Positions 1 through 64,000 of a stretch of DNA of 64,000 bases are shown in pieces (positions within the stretch are counted from its first letter, which is position 1; the number at the start of each line of letters is the position of its first letter). Under the pieces are notes generated by a model that did no database searches, was not told where the DNA came from, and saw only the letters and a program-made list of their open reading frames with translations. Made by a program: the position numbers and the translations under genes. The DNA lies in IMG/VR virus record IMGVR_UViG_3300029914_000017, one strand, 5' to 3'. Source of the stretch: an uncultured virus (IMG/VR IMGVR_UViG_3300029914_000017) (Duplodnaviria > Heunggongvirae > Uroviricota > Caudoviricetes).

Positions 1-578
<578 letters not shown>

Positions 579-19955: not shown

Positions 19956-22418
19956 ATGGAAGAAAAATTGTACACAACGGAGTTGAAGAAAGTGCTGGCA
20001 TTGCTTAATGATTTAGTTGAGGACTACCCTATTAAGAAGATTACAATTAATTATTATATGTTGGCCGTTTTACAGTCAAAACAATCGACGGCCTATAAAA
20101 TGTTGAATAAGTTTCTTTCAAAAGATGATATCGAATCGCTTTTAGTTTATTTTTCTGAATTATTAAAGGAAAGTTCAGCTACAACCGTTAAACCACGGGC
20201 TTTAAATAAAGTTGAAAAATCAATTGGTTTTGACCCAGAATTAAGCAAATGTTTAATTGATGCAAATGATGAAAAAACAAAGTTAAATGATACTGGTAAA
20301 ATTGGTTCTGAACATGTTTTATTAAGTATTTTAGGTATATCAAAGAATGATACTTGGAATCATATTGGTTTAAAATATGATAATTTATTTAATACCATCA
20401 ACGCCATTAAACAGGGTGAGATAACTAAATATGAAGAGCATAATGAAAGTTATGTCGAATCATTACAAGGCCAAAAAAATAAGCCTCGTAAAACCAATAT
20501 GGTGGAATCATATTGCGTAAATTTGAACTCTTTAGCCAAAAAGGGGAAAATTGACCAAATAGTTGGTAGAGAAATTGAAATAAGTAGATTAATTAAAGTT
20601 CTTGGCCGAAGAAATAAGAATAATGTAATAATTGTCGGGGCTTCTGGATGTGGAAAAAGTTCCATCGTGTCTGGATTAGCCAACATGATTGAAGAGGGTA
20701 AGGGGATGTTTTTAAACGACAAACAAATACTATCTTTAGACCTAACTGCCTTAATATCAGGAACCTCCTATCGTGGGATGTTGGAGGAGCGTATGAATGG
20801 CGTGATAAATGAGGTCAAGGCAAACAAAGATTTCATGTTATTTATAGATGATATTGACTCAGTTTTAGGTTCAAATTCGAACAATGCTTCAGATATTGCT
20901 GGAATTCTATCAAGTGCAATGACAGATGGAGATATACAACTTATCGCCACAACATCATTCAAAGGTTATAAAAGCTCAATCGAAAGTAATCCATCCCTAA
21001 AAAGACGTTTTCAAAAAATTATAATCGACCCAACAACAATTGAACAAACGGAAAAGATATTATTTAATTCCAAAAAATATTATGAACAATATCATAATGT
21101 TATTTACACGGATGAAGCAATTAGAGCTTGTGTAACGCTTGCAAATAAATATATTACAGATAGACAGCTTCCAGACTCAGCAATCGATATAATGGACGAA
21201 TGTGGCTCTGAGAAGAAGGTTTCAACTATTGATAATTCAACCGAATTGTTTGAATTAAAAAAAGATCTTGAATTGAATGCTTTAATGGTCAAAAAATCAT
21301 ATTCAGCCAATGATTTTACAATAGGAGATGAATATAATGCTATCTGTAAAGAATTGGAAGGTAGAATTGTTGATCTTGAAAAAAGTCAAAAGTCAAAATC
21401 TAAAAAAGATATTAAAGAAATAACAGAAATTGATGTTTATAACATTGTTTCAGAAATAACAGGTGTTCCAATCAACAGATTGACCACTTCGGAGAAGGAA
21501 CGTTATTTAAATATTGAAAATAAATTAGGTGAAAGCATAATTGGCCAATCTGAGGCCATCAAAAAAGTCGCCCAATCAATGAAAAGAAGCCGAATGGGAT
21601 TAAATGGGGGTAAATCTAAACCAGCAACATTTTTAATGGTTGGGGAAAGTGGATGTGGAAAAACACTTTTAGCTAAAAAATTGGCCGAAGAAATATTTGG
21701 AAGTGAAGACGCTTTGGTTAGATTTGATATGAGTGAATATGCTGACTCTACGAGTGTAAATAAGCTTTACGGTAGTAGTAGTGGGTATGTAGGCTATAGT
21801 GATGGTGGTTTATTAACAGAAGCAATTAAAAATAAACCCTATTGTGTTTTATTATTAGATGAAATTGAAAAGGCTCATAAAGAAGTATTAAACGTTTTTT
21901 TACAAGTATTTGATGACGGAACGCTTACAGATAATATCGGTTCCAAAATAGCCTTCAGTAATGTAATTATTATCATGACTTCAAATATTGGAGCGAAAGA
22001 TGCGGCTTCATTAGGAAGAGGAACAGGGTTTCAAACAAATATAGAAGAGAATAAAAAAAACATTACAGAAAAAGCATTAAAAGGACACTTTCCCCCAGAG
22101 TTCATTAACCGTCTCAGCAACGTTGTTTATTTCAACTCACTATCTGAAGATAATTTAAAGTCAATTATTACGTTGGAGTTAAATAATTTAAAAAAACGTT
22201 TGAATAACATAGATTTTGAGGTTGAATTTGAAAATGGTGTAACTGAATATTTATTTAAAATAATAGGAGAGAATAAAAACAGCGGTGCACGTAAAATAAA
22301 TAGGGCAATTGAAAACGAAATCGAGAATCAAATTGTTGATTTATATCTTGAAAATGAATTTGAAAAAGGTCATAATTTTAAAGTAAACGTAATTGATAAT
22401 AAAATTGAAATAAAATGA
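19956..22418 (+). CDS. clpC: ClpC/ClpB-family AAA+ chaperone
   Basis: Clp N-domain, two NBDs (GASGCGKS; GESGCGKT/LLDEIEK), DRQLPDSAID, RFDMSEY, MTSNIG, PPEFINR, and a GTGF ClpP-docking-like loop. Confidence 0.9.
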   Translation: MEEKLYTTELKKVLALLNDLVEDYPIKKITINYYMLAVLQSKQSTAYKMLNKFLSKDDIESLLVYFSELLKESSATTVKPRALNKVEKSIGFDPELSKCLIDANDEKTKLNDTGKIGSEHVLLSILGISKNDTWNHIGLKYDNLFNTINAIKQGEITKYEEHNESYVESLQGQKNKPRKTNMVESYCVNLNSLAKKGKIDQIVGREIEISRLIKVLGRRNKNNVIIVGASGCGKSSIVSGLANMIEEGKGMFLNDKQILSLDLTALISGTSYRGMLEERMNGVINEVKANKDFMLFIDDIDSVLGSNSNNASDIAGILSSAMTDGDIQLIATTSFKGYKSSIESNPSLKRRFQKIIIDPTTIEQTEKILFNSKKYYEQYHNVIYTDEAIRACVTLANKYITDRQLPDSAIDIMDECGSEKKVSTIDNSTELFELKKDLELNALMVKKSYSANDFTIGDEYNAICKELEGRIVDLEKSQKSKSKKDIKEITEIDVYNIVSEITGVPINRLTTSEKERYLNIENKLGESIIGQSEAIKKVAQSMKRSRMGLNGGKSKPATFLMVGESGCGKTLLAKKLAEEIFGSEDALVRFDMSEYADSTSVNKLYGSSSGYVGYSDGGLLTEAIKNKPYCVLLLDEIEKAHKEVLNVFLQVFDDGTLTDNIGSKIAFSNVIIIMTSNIGAKDAASLGRGTGFQTNIEENKKNITEKALKGHFPPEFINRLSNVVYFNSLSEDNLKSIITLELNNLKKRLNNIDFEVEFENGVTEYLFKIIGENKNSGARKINRAIENEIENQIVDLYLENEFEKGHNFKVNVIDNKIEIK

Positions 22419-24499: not shown

Positions 24500-24578
24500 T
24501 GGAAGAAAAACTTTGTGAAAATGTTCACAAATAAACGAAAATAAATTTGAAATTCTGGTAATTTTTCTATTTTAAAAC

Positions 24579-30950: not shown

Positions 30951-32646
30951 CGTAAACAAACCAATGTCACAGCAAGAATGTGTTGACTTTTTAAACGAAA
31001 GAGGAGTTCAAATTATTTATGAACCAAGAGCTTTGCTTCCAGAATATAGAGATTCATATTCTTTAACTAATATGTCAGTTTTCGAAGCGGTTGATAAATT
31101 TTATATATGGGATCAAACGAATTCTTTTATGGATAATTATCATCATGGAAAATAAATACTTTTTTAGGGTTGAATTTTCTATTGAGGATGGAACGTTTAG
31201 TTCGCCAGAAGAAGTTTTAAAAATGAATCTATGGGCCACTAAAGCTACACACAAAATTGGAAGCTATACATATGAGTTTCAAGGAATAGAAAAAGGGCAA
31301 CATTTTACAGAAATGGATTTAGTTTATTTATTAAAAATATACACGAATTTAAACAAAAATGAATTACAAGCATATTTTAACGAGCATTCAATTAATTCAG
31401 AATCTTATAAAATTTTATAAATATGGAAAATAGATTTGGAAACATCGATTTAGGTTGGAATGGTTGGTTTGATGATTTACCAGTTATTCCATATGTCGAG
31501 GATAATTCCGAGGAAGGCAAAAAACTTGCAGATATGTTCATAGAATTTGATGATTGGTATAATAGCGTGATTAAATTAGAAATTGAAGCAAAAAACAAAT
31601 TATGAAAAAATTAGAAGAAGAATTAAATGATATTTGGATAGAAAGAATAGAAAGAGATAAAGAATTGATTAAAATATCCGATTTATACCCATATTCTAAG
31701 ATAAATCTCAAAAAGAAAAGAAATCTTAAAAAATTTAATAAAAATGTAGAGAGATATGTATCACATAGAGTTTATATGAAATATTTTGGCATTTTAGTGA
31801 CTACACCATTAATGAGATCTTCCTATCAAATATTTTCACAAGATTTGGTTCGTGTGGAACCAATTAACGATTGTAAAATCAACTTAGTTTATCTTGATTA
31901 ATATGAAAATACCAGAAAAAGAACTCGATATATTAAATGATAGATTATTTAATTATTATTTTAAGGAAGGCGAAGAGGTTATGTTTGACCCAAATTTAAT
32001 TAAATATTATATTAAAAATTTTAAATTTGATAAAAAATTAATTACCGCATTTATAGGTAGAAAAGGTATAATTGAAAGTTGTACTTCTGACTGTGATTGT
32101 TACCCTCGTGGTTCAACATGGTTATGTACTGTAAGATTTGGTGAATCATTTATGAACTACTTTACTTTTACCTCAATGTCTGGATGTTTTATACCTTATA
32201 AAGCACCAAATACTAACAACATCCCATCACCAAAAATTAATGATTGAACGAAATAGTTTAAAATTTCCGCCAGAACTATATTAATAGTATAGAATGAGCA
32301 ACTAAAATAAACAATACAAATGAAAAAAGAATTAGAAATACCATATTTTAAAGGAAAGCCACAATATTGGCAAGGAGATAGAAATGACGAAATGAGGCCA
32401 AATACACCATTTACCGAAACTCTTAAATTTCTGACATATTCGAGAGGAAATAGTTCCGCAAAATTAATATTTGTGAAACTGAAAGATTATCCAAAATTTG
32501 AAAAAGATCATTTTTATGATGGGATTCAATATGAGGTATTTATGACCGATATCAAAGATATTATAAACAAAATGGTTAACGGGATAATTGAAGCTGAATT
32601 TATGTTTGTTAAACGTGGACAAAATTTTGGGATACAAATATTTTAA
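30937..32646 (+). other. Small hypothetical CDSs (30937-31155, ~31145-31420, 31423-31605, 31602-31901, ~31903-32247, 32320-32646)
   Basis: Abutting ORFs. Confidence 0.65.
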
Positions 32647-32675
32647 AAAATATTTTTCTCTCTATTTATGTTAAA

Positions 32676-32755
32676 TTGAAACCTTGTGATTGCTATGGTA
32701 ACGTATAAATGATGCGTTAAGTTGGAAATAAAACAACCAACAATTACTATAACAA
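32676..32755 (+). ncRNA. Structured 5' leader (three-way junction) whose 5' end pairs with the 3' UTR at 33664-33677
   Basis: Stems 32694-701/32744-51, 32702-06/32712-16 and 32721-25/32737-41; preceded by TATTTATG at 32663-70. Confidence 0.55.
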
Positions 32756-32788
32756 ATAAAATAATAAATAAAAATAATAAGGAAAAAA

Positions 32789-33652
32789 ATGAGTACAAAT
32801 TTTAAAACAGTGGGTGATGCTTGCCCAGTGGCTTATGTAGCCAAAAACAAGCAACGAGTTAAACAATATAATGATACTGTTTACTTGAAGAATGGAGATA
32901 ATTTCGAATTGGAGCTTTATAATCCAACTCAATTCAAAGTTCTTGCACAGATTGAACTAAATGGGGTGTCAATAGGCTCTGGAATCATTCTAAGGCCCGC
33001 TGAGCGAGTTTTTCTTGAGAGATATATCAACGAAGCCAAAAAGTTTTTATTTGAAACCTATGAGGTTAATGGAGAAAACAAAGAAGTTTTAAAAGCTATT
33101 GAGAAAAATGGTTTAGTATCTGTTAAATTTTATAAAGAATCGGTTAATTTTAATTGGGATTCTTTCACTATACCGCAACGGGATATATGGGGAGGTCCAG
33201 AAATTACATATTTTAATGGCTCAACTGGTAATCATTTATTTGGTCAACCAATAACCACAAGTAATGCTTATTATTCAAATTTAGGTAATTTAAGTTGCGG
33301 AAATTCAAATTCGAATTTACACTCGGATATGAGTGGTATTTCGAGTATCAGTACTAATTATTCTGGAAATAACGCTACTTTCACATCAGCAGGTGGCCAA
33401 TCAACCAATTCATTAAGGTCAAAAAAAACAATTGAAACTGGAAGAATTGAAAAAGGTTCTAAATCCGATCAAAATTTTGAAACGGTTGATGCTAAATTTG
33501 ATTTAGTACATAGTTGGATTAGTGAATGGAAGTTATTACCAGAATCCAGGAAACTGATAGTAGCTGAAGATTTGGTTAGTTATTGCACAATAGATGGTAG
33601 ACGGAGACGCAAAAATGAAATCTTTTGTCCGCTATGTGGAACTAAATTTTAA
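32789..33652 (+). CDS. Conserved-looking hypothetical protein: beta-rich N-domain, S/N/G-rich linker, C-terminal zinc ribbon
   Basis: VYLKNGDNFELELYNPT...FLERY; ETGRIEKGS; CTIDG...CPLCG. Confidence 0.75.
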   Translation: MSTNFKTVGDACPVAYVAKNKQRVKQYNDTVYLKNGDNFELELYNPTQFKVLAQIELNGVSIGSGIILRPAERVFLERYINEAKKFLFETYEVNGENKEVLKAIEKNGLVSVKFYKESVNFNWDSFTIPQRDIWGGPEITYFNGSTGNHLFGQPITTSNAYYSNLGNLSCGNSNSNLHSDMSGISSISTNYSGNNATFTSAGGQSTNSLRSKKTIETGRIEKGSKSDQNFETVDAKFDLVHSWISEWKLLPESRKLIVAEDLVSYCTIDGRRRRKNEIFCPLCGTKF

Positions 33653-33682
33653 ATAAATATTATCAATTACAAGGTTTAAAAA

Positions 33683-33718
33683 AAGGGCTATCGATTAATT
33701 TCGGTAGCCTTATTTTTG
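33683..33718. terminator. Intrinsic, probably bidirectional terminator at the convergence point
   Basis: AAGGGCTATCGA-TTAATT-TCGGTAGCCTT flanked by A- and T-runs. Confidence 0.8.
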
Positions 33719-33835
33719 TTGGTAAAAACAAACGTTAGGTACAATTTATTGGGTTATTGTTAGATATAACCAATGTTGCTATCAATATATTTGCATTGTT
33801 ATCATATGGTGTGATAATGGTGCAAAAACAGGTGA

Positions 33836-34189
33836 TTATAGGAACTTATTAAAGTTTTCTTTCATTTCATCTAAACCCTCTTTCTTTTCGCCAGATAATT
33901 CTTTTTCGGCCCAGTTTTTAGGCTTTGAAGCTGTATAATAATCTAATTTTTCAACCAAATGTTGTAATGCAATTATCTTTTGGAACTGGGTATCTTCTAA
34001 CGTATGTTCATGCTCTATTTGCTGCCCTATTTTGAGCATTTCTTTTACTTTACCATTAGTTACACTATTTAACTCTGCAATAAGCGTAATAGCCTTTAAA
34101 ATCATTTTTTCAATGTTATCCTGATGAACCCCATTCTTCTTTGAATTGAATGCAGAATATAAGTAATCAACTATTTCTTCTTTTTTCAT
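33836..34189 (-). CDS. DUF5661-like protein
   Basis: LKIGQQIEHEHT...IALQHLVE...DYY; TATTTATA 20 nt upstream. Confidence 0.6.
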   Translation of the reverse strand: MKKEEIVDYLYSAFNSKKNGVHQDNIEKMILKAITLIAELNSVTNGKVKEMLKIGQQIEHEHTLEDTQFQKIIALQHLVEKLDYYTASKPKNWAEKELSGEKKEGLDEMKENFNKFL

Positions 34190-34229
34190 TTGAATTATGA
34201 TTTATTTAATATAAATAGTTTATATATAA

Positions 34230-34292
34230 GAAAAAGATACCCTTTTGGAGGTATCTTTTGCAAATGTAGGTAAAATTTTTAATTTTGCCAAA
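34230..34292 (-). promoter_or_regulatory. Terminator hairpin (34232-34259) abutting an early promoter (TTTG-N20-TACATTTG, 34292-34261)
   Basis: Seen directly downstream of the NAMPT-like gene. Confidence 0.65.
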
Positions 34293-34296
34293 TAAA

Positions 34297-35901
34297 TTAA
34301 GAATTTTTTATTCTATCTCTAACTTCTTGCCATTGTGGTTCATTAATGAAAACACCATCCCTATAAACAAGTTTTAATTCAGAATTTTCATATTCTTCAA
34401 TTGTGGCACGATCTTTTAGATAATATTCACCAGATTCATCTTTAAATACAGCAACAAGACCTCTGGCAGATTTCTTGCCACCTTTATCAGTAATTGGATC
34501 TTTGAATAATTCAATACCGTGGCCATTGATTTCAGCGTAGGTACCCTTAAAAGCCAGCGAAAAAGTATCGCGTGTTTGAAATTGGTATCCAACTGATCCA
34601 CAGCCATATATGGTATTTGTTGATGTAAATCCTTTATCAGCTAAATTTTGGGATGTACGATCAATCCTTTCATTGTTGTTTGCCTCCCCGTACAACATAC
34701 CGATATGTTCATCAAGTTTTTTATAACCCATACCAGTTAAAGTACCACCAAAAATATCCCATAGAGCTTCGACTACACCTTTATATTCAATTTCATAGCC
34801 ATCAATACTATATAAATATGTTTTTTCAAGTGGAAGATACCAACCATTTTCATCTTTTATAATATCACCAGTAAAATTTTTATAGCCAGAAATAACCTCT
34901 ACTGGGGAATGACGAGAAGAATCTGGCCGAAGTACTATTTTACCATCACGGGTAAGAATTACATCTTTTAACCTCTTCATAAAATCAAAAATTGTAACCC
35001 AAGTATTAATTGTATCACAAACAATAGAAAGAATACCAGTAGGGCAATCTTCCGTCATTAATTTTTTAAATGTATCAAATTCAGCCTCACCAATGTAATC
35101 CCAATTATTATCATATTTATCCCAAATAAAAAATGATATATTTTGGCACATGATTGCGTGTTCACTCGCACTAACTGATTGAATTACAACACCTTGTGCA
35201 TTATAATAGTAACGTGCAGCTGGTATTACTGGTAATGTGTCGGAGCCAATAAAAGATGTTGCGTGTGCCAATCCAGAACCAATAAAGGAAGATTCACCTC
35301 CCATGCCTCTCATACTAAAGTCATGTCCCTGATAATCAACGAATTGAATACTTTCTGGGTCAGTTCTTAAAGCCCATTTAGCAAGTGTTCGATGATATGA
35401 CCTTGCAATTGTTGCAGTAGTAATAGGCTGCCAAGACATTGAAGAAAATATAGTCTCAAGATAATTCGTAACCCATGCGAAATGTTGGTGTGTATTACTG
35501 ATTGTAAGTAATGGAACGCCAAAAGGGACTTCATTACCTTCTTCAATTGTACGTAATTCAATCGGAAGATATTGTAAATCATGTAATTCTTCAAAATGAG
35601 TTACGTCGTAATCGACACCTAAATATAGAGTCATTTCATGTTTCATTTCCCCACACACATCGTCTTTAGGACGATTAAAAAAGTCATTTACAAACTTGTC
35701 ATTAATATATTTCATAACATAGTTTTCGCCAAAATTAGTTACTTTTTTACAACCCTTTGGCGCTCTTTTGTCCATTCTTGGGGTACAATTTGTTACTAAT
35801 TTTGTTAATCCATTGGCTTCCATGAACTTATGTCCAATTTTATAACCATCTGTTAACATTAAAGCATTTAGAAAAAACGTGTTCTTTAAAAATTCATTCA
35901 T
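34297..35901 (-). CDS. Nicotinamide phosphoribosyltransferase-like enzyme (Namat of NARP1)
   Basis: TDGYK.GH, NCTPR, TNYLET, HDFSMRG, GSDT, SEHA, SIVCDT, LRPDS, KDPITD..KKSARG. Confidence 0.9.
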   Translation of the reverse strand: MNEFLKNTFFLNALMLTDGYKIGHKFMEANGLTKLVTNCTPRMDKRAPKGCKKVTNFGENYVMKYINDKFVNDFFNRPKDDVCGEMKHEMTLYLGVDYDVTHFEELHDLQYLPIELRTIEEGNEVPFGVPLLTISNTHQHFAWVTNYLETIFSSMSWQPITTATIARSYHRTLAKWALRTDPESIQFVDYQGHDFSMRGMGGESSFIGSGLAHATSFIGSDTLPVIPAARYYYNAQGVVIQSVSASEHAIMCQNISFFIWDKYDNNWDYIGEAEFDTFKKLMTEDCPTGILSIVCDTINTWVTIFDFMKRLKDVILTRDGKIVLRPDSSRHSPVEVISGYKNFTGDIIKDENGWYLPLEKTYLYSIDGYEIEYKGVVEALWDIFGGTLTGMGYKKLDEHIGMLYGEANNNERIDRTSQNLADKGFTSTNTIYGCGSVGYQFQTRDTFSLAFKGTYAEINGHGIELFKDPITDKGGKKSARGLVAVFKDESGEYYLKDRATIEEYENSELKLVYRDGVFINEPQWQEVRDRIKNS

Positions 35902-35915
35902 AATTTTATATTTAA

Positions 35916-36872
35916 TTAATAATTTGTTAATAATTTGCTTGGGTGAACGGCATTCACCCCGATTGATTTATATTTTTCAAGTATTTGATGATCATCATCG
36001 ACAACCATACAATCACATACGTTGAGTTTAAGTTTTTTAATAAGTTGTTGTAAAAATACGTGTTTAAAGTTACGATTTCCAACAAAATAAATATTTTCAT
36101 CTTTGATGAAACCAGCGTGATGCAATAACCACGTTAATTTTTCTTGATTAGCAATACTATTTGGGGAAGCACTTACTACATAGATTGTTTTTCCGCTATC
36201 CTGAAGCTTTTTAAGTTTATCAATTACTTCTTTTACTGGTTTCCCTTTCAGGAAAACCGAATATTGAACGAAGTCAATATTACCATTCTCATCAGTGTGT
36301 AAATCCTGATATTCAGCCATCGTACCATCTAAATCGGCAAATATGTGACTGTCAGTGAAATAGTCAACTTGAACAAATTCGTCAGATAATAAACGTAATT
36401 TTACAGCAGCTGTTTGTAATTTATAAGCCTTATCAATAATAGCTGATTTTTTAACAAAACGATCACCATTTTCATAACGTATTTCATTCCTTTCAATACA
36501 TATGTTAACTGGTGTATTAATAAAAACAACTTTAATATGGTAATCCAACTTTCTTAATTCGGTTATTATACCAACGGTATAACTATTGTTAATACCTCCC
36601 CCGTCCATAACCAGATTATACCCACCTTCAGTATATTCGAAAACTTTATCTCTTGCCAATTTAACACATTCTTCATGAATTAATTCAGGGTTTTTGGGAT
36701 CATAATCTGGGTGATTAATTCTAATTTCATCCGCTGAGATTAAAATATAAGTGCTTTCTTGTAAGCAAAAAACCCTACCAAGTGAACAGCTGTTAACGAA
36801 TTGGATACGATCTTCTATAAATTTACTCTTTCCACTTCCTGGAAGTCCAAGCATAAATATTGCTTCTTTCAT
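35916..36872 (-). CDS. P-loop kinase plus HAD phosphatase fusion (polynucleotide kinase-phosphatase-like)
   Basis: GLPGSGKS, SADEIR, CIERN; FADLDGT...VSAS...K...VDDD. Confidence 0.8.
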   Translation of the reverse strand: MKEAIFMLGLPGSGKSKFIEDRIQFVNSCSLGRVFCLQESTYILISADEIRINHPDYDPKNPELIHEECVKLARDKVFEYTEGGYNLVMDGGGINNSYTVGIITELRKLDYHIKVVFINTPVNICIERNEIRYENGDRFVKKSAIIDKAYKLQTAAVKLRLLSDEFVQVDYFTDSHIFADLDGTMAEYQDLHTDENGNIDFVQYSVFLKGKPVKEVIDKLKKLQDSGKTIYVVSASPNSIANQEKLTWLLHHAGFIKDENIYFVGNRNFKHVFLQQLIKKLKLNVCDCMVVDDDHQILEKYKSIGVNAVHPSKLLTNY

Positions 36873-58995: not shown

Positions 58996-59150
58996 CCGAT
59001 ACGAAATGTGTTGAAATATGTTGCATATCATGCAACGGATTTCGCTATTTCTTCTAGGTTCATCTTGCCACTACTTTTTAGTACCTCGTTTCCGAGTCTG
59101 TCATCCATAGTTGGGCAATCCCCAAGCGTTAATTCGGGTGTTCGGCACCC
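58996..59150 (-). ncRNA. Predicted TnpB omegaRNA/reRNA scaffold overlapping the tnpB 3' end; guide is the flank AATAGGAATTTGTGATGG
   Basis: GC-rich hairpins (GGGTG.CCGAA.CACCC; GTTGCAT.GAT.ATGCAAC) at the element right end, as established for TnpB. The 5' boundary is approximate. Confidence 0.7.
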
Positions 59151-60344
59151 TATCAATCTTAATCCCTCTTCTCTGATATTTATGGCCGCATTTACATCCC
59201 TGTTGTGGCTTGAACCACACTCTGGACAAATCCACTCCCTATCTTTAAGAGTTAAATCCTTTTTTATATATCCACAAACTGAACAGGTCTTTGACGATGG
59301 AAACCATCGACTGATCTCTATTATTTCCCTTCCGTACCACTGAGCTTTGTAATTTAACATTACTTTAAATTCTCCCCAGTTTACGTCCTGAATCGCTCCC
59401 GCGAGCTTGTGGTTTTTCATCATCCCTTTAACATTTAAATCTTCCATTACTATCACTTGATTGTCGCTTAATAATGAATTTGTTGCAAGATGAAGATAAT
59501 TTTTCTTAATATCTGATATTCTCTTACTTAATTTTGCTATTTTTATTCTATTCTTCTCATGATTATGAGATGGCCTCTTTGTCTTGACATCTTTTTTCCA
59601 TTTCTTATTATAATGAACTTCTCCTGTTTCTACTAATTTTTTCTTAGCTAATTGCCTTTGCAATCTCTTTAATTGTTTCGAGTATTTCTTTCTTAATTTT
59701 AGATTTTCAAAAATCTCAGCTTCTGAGGTAATGACGAAGTCTTTAATCCCTAAGTCGATACCTACCGTATTCCTGTTTTTGGAAAGTACTTTATTTTCCT
59801 GAGAATCAATTAATACTTTGGCGAAGTATTCGCCATTCTTTAATTTCTTAATAGTTACACGAATAATACAATCCTTGTATTTTTCTAAATAAGCTTTATA
59901 TTCTTTAGAAGTTTTATATTTAATAAACCCGAATTTCTTCGAAACAAACATAAAATTTTCTTTATAAAAAATCTTTTTAGAAAAGGCTTCGTTGTAAAGT
60001 CCGATACTTTGCTCATCTGATCTTTTCTTGAAATTAGGAAAGCCAGTGTCTTTCTGTGCTTTCTTAAAGAAATTAGAATAGGCTGTACCTAAATTCTTTA
60101 GGGAGTCTTTTAATATCTTAGTATTGTGTTCGGTTAGATATTTAAATTCTTCTGATTTTAATAGGTCTTGGTGAAGATAGTGTCCGAAGTCCACTAAGGA
60201 ACAGAAGTTGTTTCCTTGTTCGTGTTCGGTTATTGCCTTATCTAAACAAAGATTATAGACCTTTCTATAGCAGCCGAAGATTTTACCGAGGTAAATCCTT
60301 TGTTCACTATTTGGATATAATTTAATGTTTAGAGATTTGAGCAT
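59028..60344 (-). CDS. tnpB: TnpB RNA-guided endonuclease
   Basis: RuvC triad intact (GIDLG, MEDL, RDVNAA); zinc finger CSVC/CPEC. Confidence 0.95.
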   Translation of the reverse strand: MLKSLNIKLYPNSEQRIYLGKIFGCYRKVYNLCLDKAITEHEQGNNFCSLVDFGHYLHQDLLKSEEFKYLTEHNTKILKDSLKNLGTAYSNFFKKAQKDTGFPNFKKRSDEQSIGLYNEAFSKKIFYKENFMFVSKKFGFIKYKTSKEYKAYLEKYKDCIIRVTIKKLKNGEYFAKVLIDSQENKVLSKNRNTVGIDLGIKDFVITSEAEIFENLKLRKKYSKQLKRLQRQLAKKKLVETGEVHYNKKWKKDVKTKRPSHNHEKNRIKIAKLSKRISDIKKNYLHLATNSLLSDNQVIVMEDLNVKGMMKNHKLAGAIQDVNWGEFKVMLNYKAQWYGREIIEISRWFPSSKTCSVCGYIKKDLTLKDREWICPECGSSHNRDVNAAINIREEGLRLIGCRTPELTLGDCPTMDDRLGNEVLKSSGKMNLEEIAKSVA

Positions 60345-62691: not shown

Positions 62692-64000
62692 TTATTCGTT
62701 ATTTAAGCCAAGGTTAATACCTTCAGATGCTGCAATAAAGCTTATAAAATGTTCTGACCATCCACTTATCTCGCTTGTCCATACACCTTTATAGTTAATC
62801 CCGTGTGTGTTATTGCTAACATCGACAATGTAATTATATATACCAAATGGAGAAGGTACGCTATTACTACTATCACAATCCTGACTATCAGAAAATACGA
62901 TAATCCGTTCTGGTTTAATCGATGAATTCTCTTCTTTAATATAATTTAAACATTGTCTTGTAAATATTCCTCCGCCACCTAATTTGCTTTTTAATGCATC
63001 AATTTGAGTAAACAGCCCAAATCCAGTTGATGGGTATTTAATTTGTTCAGTTGAATGAATCCTTCGACCATCACTTCCAGCAGTACAATACACAATGATA
63101 TTTTCACACAAATTAACAGCTAACAAGCACATTGCTTTTGCAACATCCATTCTATTAAATTCAGATTTACCACTCATATTAGCTTCCATTGAACCACTAA
63201 CATCTACGACAAAAACAGTAGTTCCTTTTAATTTAGGTAATTGTGACCAACCATCAATCATTAATTTTTCTAATTCTTTAGAAAATTCGGGTGCATATTT
63301 TACAGCCGATAAAAAATTAAGTGGTAAGAGCATTTTAGTATTTAATGAAAGTAATCCTTTTCGAATTATATTTCCATCAACATCAGCTTCTTTCATATTC
63401 CTAAGATTACGCAAGAATGCCAACGAACCAAGTTTATTTTCTTCAATTAATCTTTCCCATACACCTTTATGTTGATCTTTTGGTGTAGTGGATAATCCAA
63501 CCTCCCAAGTATCAGGGGTTTTTATATCATCAGAAATTACTTTGTTAAATAATAATTGTTGTTCATCTGAAATAGCTTTTGGATGAGTTAAAAATATTAG
63601 ATCTTTAAATTTAACAGATGTCTGTCTATTATATTTTCCAAAACCATATTCATTTATATTATTCAATGTCTGTTGAACTCCCCTTACCAAAGACTTAGAT
63701 AATGGCCCTTGTTTTAACTGATTTTTAACAGTCCTTGCTTTACTTGAGTTTTCAGCCCAATACAATGCCACTAAATCAGTTATCATATCTGGTCGGGTAC
63801 AAATTTTTGGAATTATTTCTCCAACATATTTTGAATGAGTTGAATATTTTAGCATTTCAACTAAAATCATTATAGGAGTGTGGCGAAGTTTTTGTTCTTC
63901 ACGGCATTCTACAGCTAAATTAGCAACTAATTTACCATCAATTTTAGGAATCAATGATTTAATTCGATCTGAAATTAGGTCACCATCCTGATAAGCGGCA
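62692..64000 (-). CDS. Ro60/TROVE plus vWA protein (Rsr-like); 5' end outside window
   Basis: LRHTP, HPK, PDTWE, LAFLRNLRN, VVDVSGSM, VFSDSQ; the frame stays open to the window end. Confidence 0.9.
   Translation of the reverse strand, partial: AAYQDGDLISDRIKSLIPKIDGKLVANLAVECREEQKLRHTPIMILVEMLKYSTHSKYVGEIIPKICTRPDMITDLVALYWAENSSKARTVKNQLKQGPLSKSLVRGVQQTLNNINEYGFGKYNRQTSVKFKDLIFLTHPKAISDEQQLLFNKVISDDIKTPDTWEVGLSTTPKDQHKGVWERLIEENKLGSLAFLRNLRNMKEADVDGNIIRKGLLSLNTKMLLPLNFLSAVKYAPEFSKELEKLMIDGWSQLPKLKGTTVFVVDVSGSMEANMSGKSEFNRMDVAKAMCLLAVNLCENIIVYCTAGSDGRRIHSTEQIKYPSTGFGLFTQIDALKSKLGGGGIFTRQCLNYIKEENSSIKPERIIVFSDSQDCDSSNSVPSPFGIYNYIVDVSNNTHGINYKGVWTSEISGWSEHFISFIAASEGINLGLNNE

What the first reader, a model, noticed from the sequence alone, without database searches (positions are those of the whole stretch)
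32663..33718. Panhandle mRNA: transcript ends pair around an entire gene
Seen: AAACCTTGTGATTG (32679-92), just after the late-like motif TATTTATG, is complementary to CAATTACAAGGTTT (33664-77), which lies between the stop codon and the terminator. This gives 14 contiguous bp across ~970 nt. The only non-Watson-Crick pair is G.U on the sense strand, which favours an RNA-level duplex over a DNA inverted repeat. The leader also folds into a three-way junction whose extended closing stem competes for TTG 32690-92. Inference: a closed-loop mRNA for stabilisation or translational silencing (as in 5'-3' paired type I toxin mRNAs), an RNase III substrate, or a circularisation substrate for the phage RNA ligase. 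The encoded 287-aa protein has no function I can assign.
Basis: partly seen in the sequence, partly recalled or inferred. Interest (0 to 1): 0.75.

Follow-up and report, generated by a model that had tools for sequence, protein, structure and literature searches.

The report
Conserved mRNA panhandle in huge phages
The start and the tail of one phage messenger RNA pair with each other around the whole gene, and this pairing is kept, with matching changes on both sides, in most of the related genes of other large phages examined, so it is a real RNA device and not a chance match.

Summary
32679-32692 pairs with 33664-33677 (14 bp, one G.U on the sense strand), between a promoter-like motif and the terminator of a monocistronic 287-aa gene. 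On its own it is only suggestive: the window holds 14 such helices. Homologs settle it. In 81 of 88 distinct homologous loci from huge-phage contigs, the best 5'-flank/3'-flank helix is this element at the same places. It has an invariant core (ACCUUGU/ACAAGGU), covarying flanking pairs, three loci with different arm sequences, and G.U far outnumbering A.C. It is therefore an RNA-level duplex of the sense transcript.

The 5' arm begins about where transcription should start. It is followed by a conserved three-way-junction leader. No Rfam family matches.

The 5' core is also complementary to the Shine-Dalgarno region, and the 3' arm mimics it. My preferred mechanism (odds about 0.45) is a three-partner switch: the 3' UTR captures an anti-SD 5' end, so only complete mRNAs are translated, and the 5' end is protected. 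Pure stabilisation, as in B. subtilis hbs, is the main rival.

The protein's function is unknown (beta-sandwich plus zinc ribbon). No transcript ends were measured.

The parts
32662..32676 (+). Promoter-like motif CTATTTATGTTAAAT. TATTTA aligns with the -10 box TATAyT of the homologs.
   Evidence: copies with at most 2 mismatches at 24578+, 34204-, 47071+, 54261-, 60933- and 62095-. Checked against the ORF list, five of these lie just upstream of a same-strand ORF start (24725, 34189, 47098, 60922, 62078); no listed ORF of 90 aa or more starts near 54261-; alignment with TTTACA-N16-18-TATAyT promoters of homologs. No transcription start was measured.
32679..32692 (+). 5' arm of the panhandle (AAACCUUGUGAUUG). 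The core ACCUUGU is 32681-32687. It is also complementary to the SD region.
32690..32755 (+). Leader three-way junction. TTG 32690-92 pairs with 32753-55 (shared with the panhandle). Closing stem 32694-32700/32745-32751. Hairpin P1 32701-06/32712-17. Hairpin P2 32721-25/32737-41.
   Evidence: Minimum-energy fold. RNAalifold on 81 leaders: 19 of 26 pairs have compensatory changes. The covariance model R1 hits the window only at 32678-32788, E 5e-8.
32777..32783 (+). Shine-Dalgarno region AUAAGGA. AUAAGG can pair with CCUUGU 32682-32687.
32789..33652 (+). CDS of 287 aa, function unknown. N-terminal beta-sandwich, a disordered S/T/N-rich linker, and a C-terminal zinc ribbon that is degenerate in this copy.
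33664..33677 (+). 3' arm of the panhandle (CAAUUACAAGGUUU). The core ACAAGGU is 33669-33675 and resembles an SD.
33678..33718 (+). A tract, terminator hairpin 33684-33711 and T run, at the point where the + and - gene blocks converge.
   Evidence: In 56 of 81 homologs a hairpin plus T run follows the 3' core, with the stem starting a median 10 nt after it.

Best explanation
The gene is a self-contained transcription unit: promoter, 110-nt structured leader, CDS, 3' UTR and terminator.

Shown by comparison: the first nucleotides of the mRNA (5' arm) base-pair with the 3' UTR just upstream of the terminator (3' arm). This closes the roughly 1-kb mRNA into a panhandle, and the duplex is selected at the RNA level on the sense strand.

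Inferred (odds about 0.45 for the switch, about 0.9 for the duplex itself): the 5' arm is an anti-Shine-Dalgarno-like element with two alternative partners. While the RNA is nascent, or after its 3' end has been lost, the core CCUUGU pairs with the SD region AUAAGG across the three-way junction and keeps ribosomes off. When the 3' UTR is made, its SD-mimicking arm offers 13-16 bp against 6-7 bp. The unpaired parts of the 5' arm serve as toeholds, so the 3' arm wins the 5' arm. This frees the SD and at the same time buries the 5' end in a duplex.

The expected result is that only complete transcripts are translated, and that they are protected from 5'-end-dependent decay. This dual constraint would explain why the 7-bp core never varies while the pairs beside it covary.
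For: Conservation of the duplex:
- 170 homologous loci were fetched. 160 had enough flank, and these collapse to 88 distinct flank clusters. In 81 of 88 the top 5'-flank/3'-flank helix is this element. In 80 of them the 5' arm lies at -108..-76 from the ATG and the 3' arm at +5..+31 after the stop; in L043 the 3' arm lies at +40..+49.
- Fixed-register tally over 81 arm pairs: offsets 0-6 are invariant. Offset -1 has A-U 36, G-C 38 and 5 non-Watson-Crick pairs. Offset -2 has A-U 35 and U-A 23. Offset -3 has A-U 18, U-A 14 and G-C 14. Offset +7 has G-C 58, U-A 15 and G.U 6.
- Variable columns are 0.757 canonical, against 0.629 (sd 0.011) in column shuffles; 0 of 2000 shuffles reach the observed value. 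Slid registers give 0.30-0.51.
- On a protein tree, offset -1 shows 10 switches among canonical pairs. In 4 independent pairs of rows on supported branches, the 3' base follows the 5' base 3.9 of 4 times and never the other way.
- Loci with different arm sequences keep the pairing. L010: 14 bp, 2 of 2000 shuffles. L074: 12 bp, 11 of 2000. L003: 12 bp, 12 of 2000.

Sense-strand RNA: G.U fills 110 cells (45 state changes) against A.C in 20 cells (15 changes).

Thermodynamics: the panhandle is in the minimum-energy fold of the full-length W transcript. Of 25 full-length homologs that I picked for diversity out of 81, all 25 have core probability above 0.8, and 24 of 25 have all 7 core pairs in the minimum-energy fold.

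Transcript start: 53 of 81 loci have TTTACA-N16-18-TATAyT. In 50 of those 53 the -10 box ends 4-8 nt before the first paired base.

Switch:
- RNAalifold on the leaders alone pairs CCUUGUG with the SD.
- With the leader folded up to the AUG, the 5' core pairs with the SD region at mean probability 0.77.
- Arm-to-SD complementarity has p about 0.02-0.08 in W, L029 and L022, and about 0.02 in L074, where arm, SD and 3' arm all changed together (GCCUGA / UCAGGU / UCAGGC).
- The clade with 5' ...GUU has A in both the SD-side partner and the 3' arm.
- Published work shows aSD-like sequences repressing at long range (PMC12697547, abstract read), and a 14-nt 5'/3' UTR interaction just upstream of the terminator in hbs (PMC5737220, abstract and section 16 read).
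Against: - No transcript end was measured. The start is inferred from promoter spacing, and in W the spacing is longer and the -35 box poor (best match 8 of 12).
- The SD-sequestration step is weak thermodynamically. With 33 nt of CDS added, SD-to-5'-arm pairing exceeds 0.5 in only 6 of 81 loci (mean 0.19). SD accessibility rises by more than 0.3 in only 9 of 81 when the 3' UTR is added.
- The 5' core's pairing with the SD region falls to 0.43 at AUG+33 and 0.16 at AUG+150, as CDS partners compete.
- In the full-length W fold the SD is not more open (0.43 against 0.55).
- The anti-SD/SD pairs are invariant on both sides, so they carry almost no covariation. L003 and L010 show no significant arm-to-TIR match (p 0.24-0.57).
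- The independent-pairs sign test cannot reach significance (p 0.125).
- The cross-locus null is inflated by the shared core: 26% of 7656 cross pairs reach a score of 28, against 68 of 88 native pairs.
- Four clusters lack the panhandle: L004, L005 and the Lak A/B/C clusters L006 and L008. L004 keeps the leader.
- An untranslated nascent RNA would be exposed to Rho and RNases.
Confidence: 0.45

Rival explanations
1. Pure stabiliser. The panhandle only hides the 5' end, and perhaps a leader cleavage site, from 5'-end-dependent or endonucleolytic decay, as in the B. subtilis hbs 5'/3'-UTR interaction. The likeness of the arms to anti-SD and SD is incidental.
For: The architecture matches hbs: about 14 bp, with the 3' segment just upstream of the terminator (PMC5737220, section 16). 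The 5' arm starts at about +1. The panhandle is robust in folds, whereas SD sequestration is weak.
Against: It does not explain why 7 core pairs are invariant in 81 clusters while neighbouring pairs drift by compensation. It also does not explain why arm, SD region and 3' arm changed together in L074.
Confidence: 0.3
2. Autoregulatory platform. The conserved three-way junction plus panhandle is the binding site of a protein, most simply the encoded zinc-ribbon protein. The invariant core is a recognition sequence.
For: The leader is conserved at nucleotide level (mean column identity 61-64%) while the proteins are 41-52% identical. The leader is found once in the window, only before this gene. 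The module travels as a unit in unrelated contexts. 39-41 of 43 family members carry a zinc ribbon.
Against: There is no evidence of RNA binding. The fold is a generic beta-sandwich: Z of 6.4 or less, and no Foldseek hit at E of 1e-3 or better. W's own zinc ribbon is degenerate. This reading is compatible with, not exclusive of, the other readings.
Confidence: 0.12
3. Processing site. The duplex, coaxially stacked on the junction's closing stem, is cut by RNase III or a phage nuclease, like the stalks that flank rRNA. Alternatively it aligns ends for an RNA ligase to circularise the RNA.
For: The window encodes a polynucleotide kinase/phosphatase-like protein (35916-36872) and a Ro60/TROVE protein, so RNA-end chemistry is present in this phage. 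The panhandle abuts the closing stem.
Against: The helix is only 13-16 bp. The true 3' end lies beyond the terminator hairpin, about 40 nt from the duplex, so the ends are not adjacent. No joint was seen in the single RNA run, which holds contigs only.
Confidence: 0.08
4. A DNA-level inverted repeat, such as terminal repeats of a mobile cassette or paired operator sites, or a chance match.
For: The module sits in unrelated neighbourhoods. The window holds 14 helices of similar quality.
Against: Mismatches are strongly asymmetric: G.U 110 against A.C 20 cells, and 45 against 15 events, which DNA would not show. The conserved unit extends beyond both arms, to the promoter upstream and the terminator downstream. 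Chance is excluded by conservation in 81 of 88 clusters and by the shuffles.
Confidence: 0.03

Closest known systems
B. subtilis hbs mRNA 5'/3'-UTR long-range interaction (Braun, Durand, Condon 2017; PMC5737220, abstract and section 16 read)
   Same: About 14 nt of full complementarity between the 5' UTR and a 3' UTR segment just upstream of the terminator of a short monocistronic mRNA with a structured leader. It modulates RNase access.
   Different: In hbs the 5' segment lies downstream of two hairpins, not at the 5' end, and is not anti-SD-like. hbs was proven by compensatory mutants in one species. The element here is supported by natural covariation across 81 phage lineages but has not been tested.
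S. aureus icaR 5'-3' UTR pairing (PMC3868564; search listing and start of abstract only)
   Same: A 3' UTR segment of the same mRNA pairs with the 5' UTR and affects translation initiation. As I recall, it also creates an RNase III site.
   Different: As I recall, in icaR the 3' UTR carries an anti-SD motif that blocks the SD, so the pairing represses. Here the 3' arm is SD-like and pairs with the 5' end, so the pairing should de-repress.
Type I toxin mRNAs hok and aapA1 (listings; details recalled)
   Same: Pairing of the 5' end with the 3' end of the full-length mRNA, alternative leader folds, and expression tied to the state of the 3' end.
   Different: In those systems the 5'-3' pairing locks an inert mRNA, and 3' trimming activates it. 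They encode small toxic peptides and have an antisense RNA. Here the ORF is 287 aa, no antisense partner was sought, and the predicted logic is inverse.
MS2/Levivirus maturation-gene leader (UCS-SD long-distance interaction in a cloverleaf; passages read in PMC4615214)
   Same: A 5'-proximal upstream complementary sequence pairs with the SD across a multi-hairpin junction, giving control by folding kinetics.
   Different: MS2 has no third partner in the 3' UTR. There, release is by a transient hairpin during synthesis.

Membership tests
Bacterial mRNA 5'/3'-UTR long-range interaction (hbs type) | Complementary segments in the 5' UTR and 3' UTR of one transcription unit | tested here: met
   The promoter and terminator bracket both arms.
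Bacterial mRNA 5'/3'-UTR long-range interaction (hbs type) | 3' segment immediately upstream of the intrinsic terminator | tested here: met
   In W there are 6 nt between the arm and the terminator stem. In 56 of 81 homologs a hairpin plus T run follows, with a median gap of 10 nt.
Bacterial mRNA 5'/3'-UTR long-range interaction (hbs type) | Pairing forms in vivo and changes RNase cleavage or half-life (compensatory mutants) | not testable with these tools
   Only natural covariation and fold predictions are available.
icaR-type 3' UTR anti-SD repression | 3' UTR segment complementary to the SD of the same mRNA | tested here: not met
   The 3' arm contains AAGG like the SD. Its partner is the 5' end, not the SD.
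Type I toxin mRNA with 5'-3' long-distance interaction (hok, aapA1) | Short ORF for a small toxic peptide | tested here: not met
   The ORF is 287 aa and encodes a folded beta-sandwich plus zinc ribbon.
Type I toxin mRNA with 5'-3' long-distance interaction (hok, aapA1) | Cis- or trans-encoded antisense RNA antitoxin | not tested
   No antisense promoter or terminator analysis was aimed at this.
Any Rfam family | Covariance-model match | tested here: not met
   Window 31500-34500 at E up to 1 gave only a sub-threshold psRNA14 hit on the terminator. Eight homologous loci at E up to 0.1 gave only tRNAs.
RNase III processing stalk | About two turns (20 bp or more) of double-stranded RNA | tested here: inconclusive
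   The contiguous helix is 9-17 bp. Coaxial stacking on the closing stem could lengthen it.
DNA terminal inverted repeat of a mobile element | Repeats mark the ends of the conserved or mobile unit, with mismatches symmetric between strands | tested here: not met
   Conservation extends outside both arms. G.U fills 110 cells against 20 for A.C.

The most novel reading that the evidence does not exclude
This may be a transcript-completion checkpoint built into a phage mRNA. An anti-SD element at the very 5' end silences the ribosome site until an SD-mimicking decoy in the 3' UTR, made last, captures it. Translation would then be licensed only for finished, intact transcripts and switched off again when the 3' end is lost. 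That is the inverse of the hok logic. The device is coupled to a previously undescribed three-way-junction leader that is more conserved than the protein it precedes.
Probability: 0.4. Interest if true: 0.8.

Novelty: new variant of a known kind. Interest (0 to 1): 0.7.

Why it matters
5'/3'-UTR pairing in bacterial mRNAs rests on a handful of single-species cases (hbs, icaR, type I toxins).

This is a whole-mRNA panhandle with natural compensatory evolution across 81 distinct lineages of large environmental phages. It comes with a conserved leader that is in no Rfam family.

It offers a compact, portable module (promoter to terminator, about 1.1 kb). With it, three questions can be tested using simple arm and compensatory mutants:
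- Can a 3' UTR license translation?
- Does transcript completion gate expression?
- How is 5'-end protection achieved without a local hairpin?

It also flags a widespread, strongly conserved phage protein of unknown function whose expression is evidently under tight control.

Tried and rejected
- megablast of the region against 50,697 phage records found no match. Relatives were found only at protein level.
- Python RNA.duplexfold on the flanks gave long loop-rich structures that were not usable as a score. I replaced it with a contiguous-helix score.
- A second complementarity seen by the repeat finder (32663-77 with 33645-59) is in a crossing register and AT-only, so I treated it as chance.
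- Outer complementarities in L001 and L010 involve terminator-like A/T-GGG tracts upstream of the promoter. I judged them generic.
- The cross-locus null is not a clean null, because most loci share the core.
- Pfam, PHROGs and NCBIfam name nothing for the W protein. Foldseek against the PDB gave no match at E of 1e-3 or better. VIA-align wide gave only generic Ig-like sandwiches at Z of 6.4 or less. The Atlas gave viral hypothetical clusters and a weak likeness to DUF7918.
- No whole genome is held for the window. There are no earlier notes on this place.
- Sequencing runs: the DNA is held by peat metagenome runs. The one RNA-library run (X12) is kept as contigs. It gave three 151-nt pieces, all within 32848-33666, plus a 31-nt fragment at the stretch's end (34270-34300) whose contig runs on unlike it. 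It cannot show ends, strand or level, and DNA carry-over is possible. I draw no conclusion from the uncovered parts.
- The hammerhead-like look of the junction (UGA ... GAA) was considered and dropped: there are no Rfam ribozyme hits.
- I did not run the leader model on all 170 loci (15 sources only). I did not run the count of structure pairs or RNAalifold on full-length alignments; the pair statistics come from my scripts.
- Literature searches did not surface a description of this element or of a conserved 5'/3' UTR panhandle in a DNA phage. That is a limited search, not proof of absence.

Full report
**The observation**

The window is AT-rich (29% GC). It comes from a huge phage distantly related to Prevotella Lak megaphages: tblastn gave 30-44% identity to Lak and other 460-735-kb phage records. 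Its DNA is held in peat metagenome runs.

Gene 32789-33652 (287 aa) is the last gene of a + strand block. It is followed by a terminator-like hairpin at 33684-33711 and then by a converging - strand block.

32679-32692 (AAACCTTGTGATTG) and 33664-33677 (CAATTACAAGGTTT) form 14 contiguous pairs. The single G.U is on the sense strand. This is the longest inverted repeat of the region.

Within the window such helices are not rare. One search lists 202 of 14 bp or more with G.U allowed, and 14 of them have at most one G.U. The placement is what is unusual:
- 1 of 2000 flank shuffles reach its score.
- It ranks first of 96 genes in the window.

**Homologs**

I collected 170 loci that encode relatives of the protein: 10 stretches of phage records, 82 loci from IMG/VR contigs and 80 from metagenome contigs (two IMG/VR contigs were fetched twice).

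After locating each ORF, 160 sequences (W included) had at least 160 nt upstream and 90 nt downstream. I collapsed near-identical flanks (50% or more shared 12-mers) to 88 clusters.

- In 81 of 88 clusters the best contiguous helix between the 5' and 3' flanks is the same element. In 80 of them the 5' arm lies at -108..-76 from the ATG and the 3' arm at +5..+31 after the stop; in L043 the 3' arm lies at +40..+49.
- L056 and L126 carry weakened versions.
- L145 has both cores once my ORF call is corrected.
- L004, L005 and the Lak A/B/C clusters (L006, L008) lack it.

**Evidence that it is an RNA structure**

In a fixed register over 81 arm pairs, the core ACCUUGU/ACAAGGU is invariant and the adjoining pairs covary:

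| Offset | Pairs seen |
|---|---|
| -1 | A-U 36, G-C 38, 5 non-Watson-Crick |
| -2 | A-U 35, U-A 23 |
| -3 | A-U 18, U-A 14, G-C 14 |
| +7 | G-C 58, U-A 15, G.U 6 |

- Variable columns are 75.7% canonical, against 62.9% (sd 1.1) after shuffling partners. None of 2000 shuffles reach the observed value, and slid registers give 30-51%.
- On a FastTree protein tree, offset -1 switches among canonical pairs 10 times. Phylogenetically independent pairs agree 3.9 of 4 times and never oppose, but four pairs cannot reach significance (p 0.125).
- Three loci have different arm sequences yet keep perfect helices at the same places. L010: 14 bp, 2 of 2000 shuffles. L074: 12 bp, 11 of 2000. L003: 12 bp, 12 of 2000.
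- Non-Watson-Crick cells are strongly asymmetric. G.U on the sense strand fills 110 cells (45 state changes), against 20 cells (15 changes) for A.C, which would be G.U on the other strand. This argues for the sense transcript and against a DNA repeat.
- The panhandle is in the minimum-energy fold of the full-length W RNA (1048 nt). Of 25 full-length homologs that I chose for diversity out of 81, all 25 have core probability above 0.8.

**Anatomy of the unit**

- *Promoter.* The alignment of 81 upstream regions shows a sigma70-like promoter, TTTACA-N16-18-TATAyT, scoring 9 of 12 or better in 53 of 81 loci. In 50 of those 53 the -10 box ends 4-8 nt before the first paired base. The 5' arm should therefore begin at about +1. 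This is inferred, not measured.
- *W's own promoter.* W has its own motif, CTATTTATGTTAAAT. It recurs at six other sites in the window; five of them lie just upstream of a same-strand ORF start (24725, 34189, 47098, 60922, 62078), and no listed ORF of 90 aa or more starts near the sixth, 54261-.
- *Leader.* After the arm comes a three-way junction with strong covariation: 19 of 26 consensus pairs have compensatory changes. An A-rich stretch and UAAGGA follow it.
- *Specificity.* A covariance model of the leader finds one copy in the window (E 5e-8). It also finds the L074 and L004 leaders, which were not in its training set.
- *Known families.* No Rfam family matches.
- *Terminator.* A hairpin plus T run follows the 3' core in 56 of 81 loci.
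- *Context.* The module sits in unrelated neighbourhoods. None of five W neighbour proteins occurs in any locus flank. Flanks share tblastx hits with only about 6-7 other clusters, whereas the CDS hits all 86.

**Mechanism**

RNAalifold on the leaders alone pairs the 5' core CCUUGU(G) with the SD region AUAAGG. The same pairing appears in W's leader fold. The 3' arm contains the same AAGG.

*For a three-partner switch:*
- With the leader folded up to the AUG, the 5' core pairs with the SD region at mean probability 0.77.
- The complementarity is moderately unlikely by chance: p 0.02-0.08 in three main-class loci.
- In L074 the arm, the SD region and the 3' arm all differ from the family and still match each other (p about 0.02).
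- The GUU clade shows the same three-way agreement.
- An invariant core next to covarying flanks is what a dual-partner constraint predicts.

*Against it:*
- With 33 nt of CDS added, SD-to-arm pairing exceeds 0.5 in only 6 of 81 loci.
- SD opening on adding the 3' UTR exceeds 0.3 in only 9 of 81.
- The 5' core's pairing with the SD region falls as more CDS is added.
- L003 and L010 show no significant match.

I therefore hold the switch at about 0.45 and an hbs-like pure stabiliser at about 0.3. Smaller odds go to a protein-binding platform, a processing site or a DNA-level repeat.

**The protein**

No Pfam, PHROG or NCBIfam family matches W. Zinc-ribbon models match 39-41 of 43 relatives, but not W, which lacks the first CxxC.

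The AlphaFold model (pLDDT 75.9) shows a beta-sandwich at residues 14-117, a disordered stretch at 129-203, further strands that pack on the sandwich, and the C-terminal ribbon. Only generic Ig-like folds match it. The Atlas search returned only viral hypothetical clusters.

**Comparison with known systems**

- *hbs (closest).* A 14-nt interaction just upstream of the terminator, proven by compensatory mutants (PMC5737220; abstract and section 16 read).
- *icaR.* Listing and start of abstract only; the mechanism is recalled. It uses a 3' UTR anti-SD and so has the opposite polarity.
- *hok and aapA1.* Listings only; details recalled. They pair 5' and 3' ends to silence a small toxin mRNA.
- *MS2 maturation gene.* It pairs a 5' upstream complementary sequence with the SD across a cloverleaf (passages read in PMC4615214).
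- *Recent preprint.* It shows aSD-like sequences repressing at long range (PMC12697547, abstract read).

The element here combines these motifs in a new arrangement and in a DNA phage. My five literature searches did not surface a description of it.

**Limits**

- No transcript ends, no in-cell structure and no host are known.
- The only RNA-library evidence is three 151-nt contigs inside 32848-33666. That is a weak hint that the gene is transcribed and says nothing about ends.

Noticed in passing
window 24578+, 32662+, 34204-, 47071+, 54261-, 60933-, 62095-: The motif CTATTTATRTTAAA recurs with at most 2 mismatches. Five of the six further sites lie just upstream of a same-strand ORF start (24725, 34189, 47098, 60922, 62078); no ORF of 90 aa or more starts near 54261-. 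This looks like a phage promoter class, though the total count at 3 mismatches is not above shuffles (59 against 50).
   Followed up: partly
window 32678-32788 and the leaders of 81 loci: The roughly 95-110-nt leader (three-way junction, conserved junction bases, conserved P2 stem GUUGG/CCAAC) is more conserved at nucleotide level than the protein is at amino-acid level. It is in no Rfam family, so it is a candidate new cis-regulatory RNA motif of large phages.
   Followed up: partly
window 59028-60344 (-): A 438-aa ORF matches OrfB_IS605, the Cas12f1-like TNB domain and HTH_OrfB_IS605 (TnpB-like) inside the phage genome.
   Followed up: no
window 62692-63954 (-), 35916-36872 (-), 34297-35901 (-), 19956-22418 (+): Four notable proteins: a Ro60/TROVE plus VWA-like protein, a kinase (zeta-toxin/AAA_33) plus HAD phosphatase protein resembling polynucleotide kinase-phosphatase, a nicotinate/nicotinamide phosphoribosyltransferase-family protein, and a ClpB-like double AAA+ protein. 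Together they suggest an RNA-repair and NAD-salvage flavour.
   Followed up: no
window 7-266: Units resembling TTGGAAGTTATTTTTA recur at a spacing of about 27 nt at the window's start. They showed up as multiple G.U-rich self-pairings.
   Followed up: no
L006-L009 (Lak B4, B5, C1, A1): The Lak homologs carry in-frame TAG codons (one or two each) and read through under code 15. They lack both the panhandle and the leader motif.
   Followed up: partly
L022:213-1301: Four tRNA genes lie directly upstream of the homologous module in this IMG/VR contig.
   Followed up: no
window 32317-32331 and 34178-34192: A perfect 15-nt inverted repeat is explained by two genes on opposite strands that both start CAA-ATG-AAA-AAA-GAA (MKKE). 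It is not a structure.
   Followed up: yes
L010:2400-2556: One distant homolog (LR756502) replaces the C-terminal zinc ribbon by a SHOCT-like tail. The Atlas also lists SHOCT-bearing clusters of this family.
   Followed up: no
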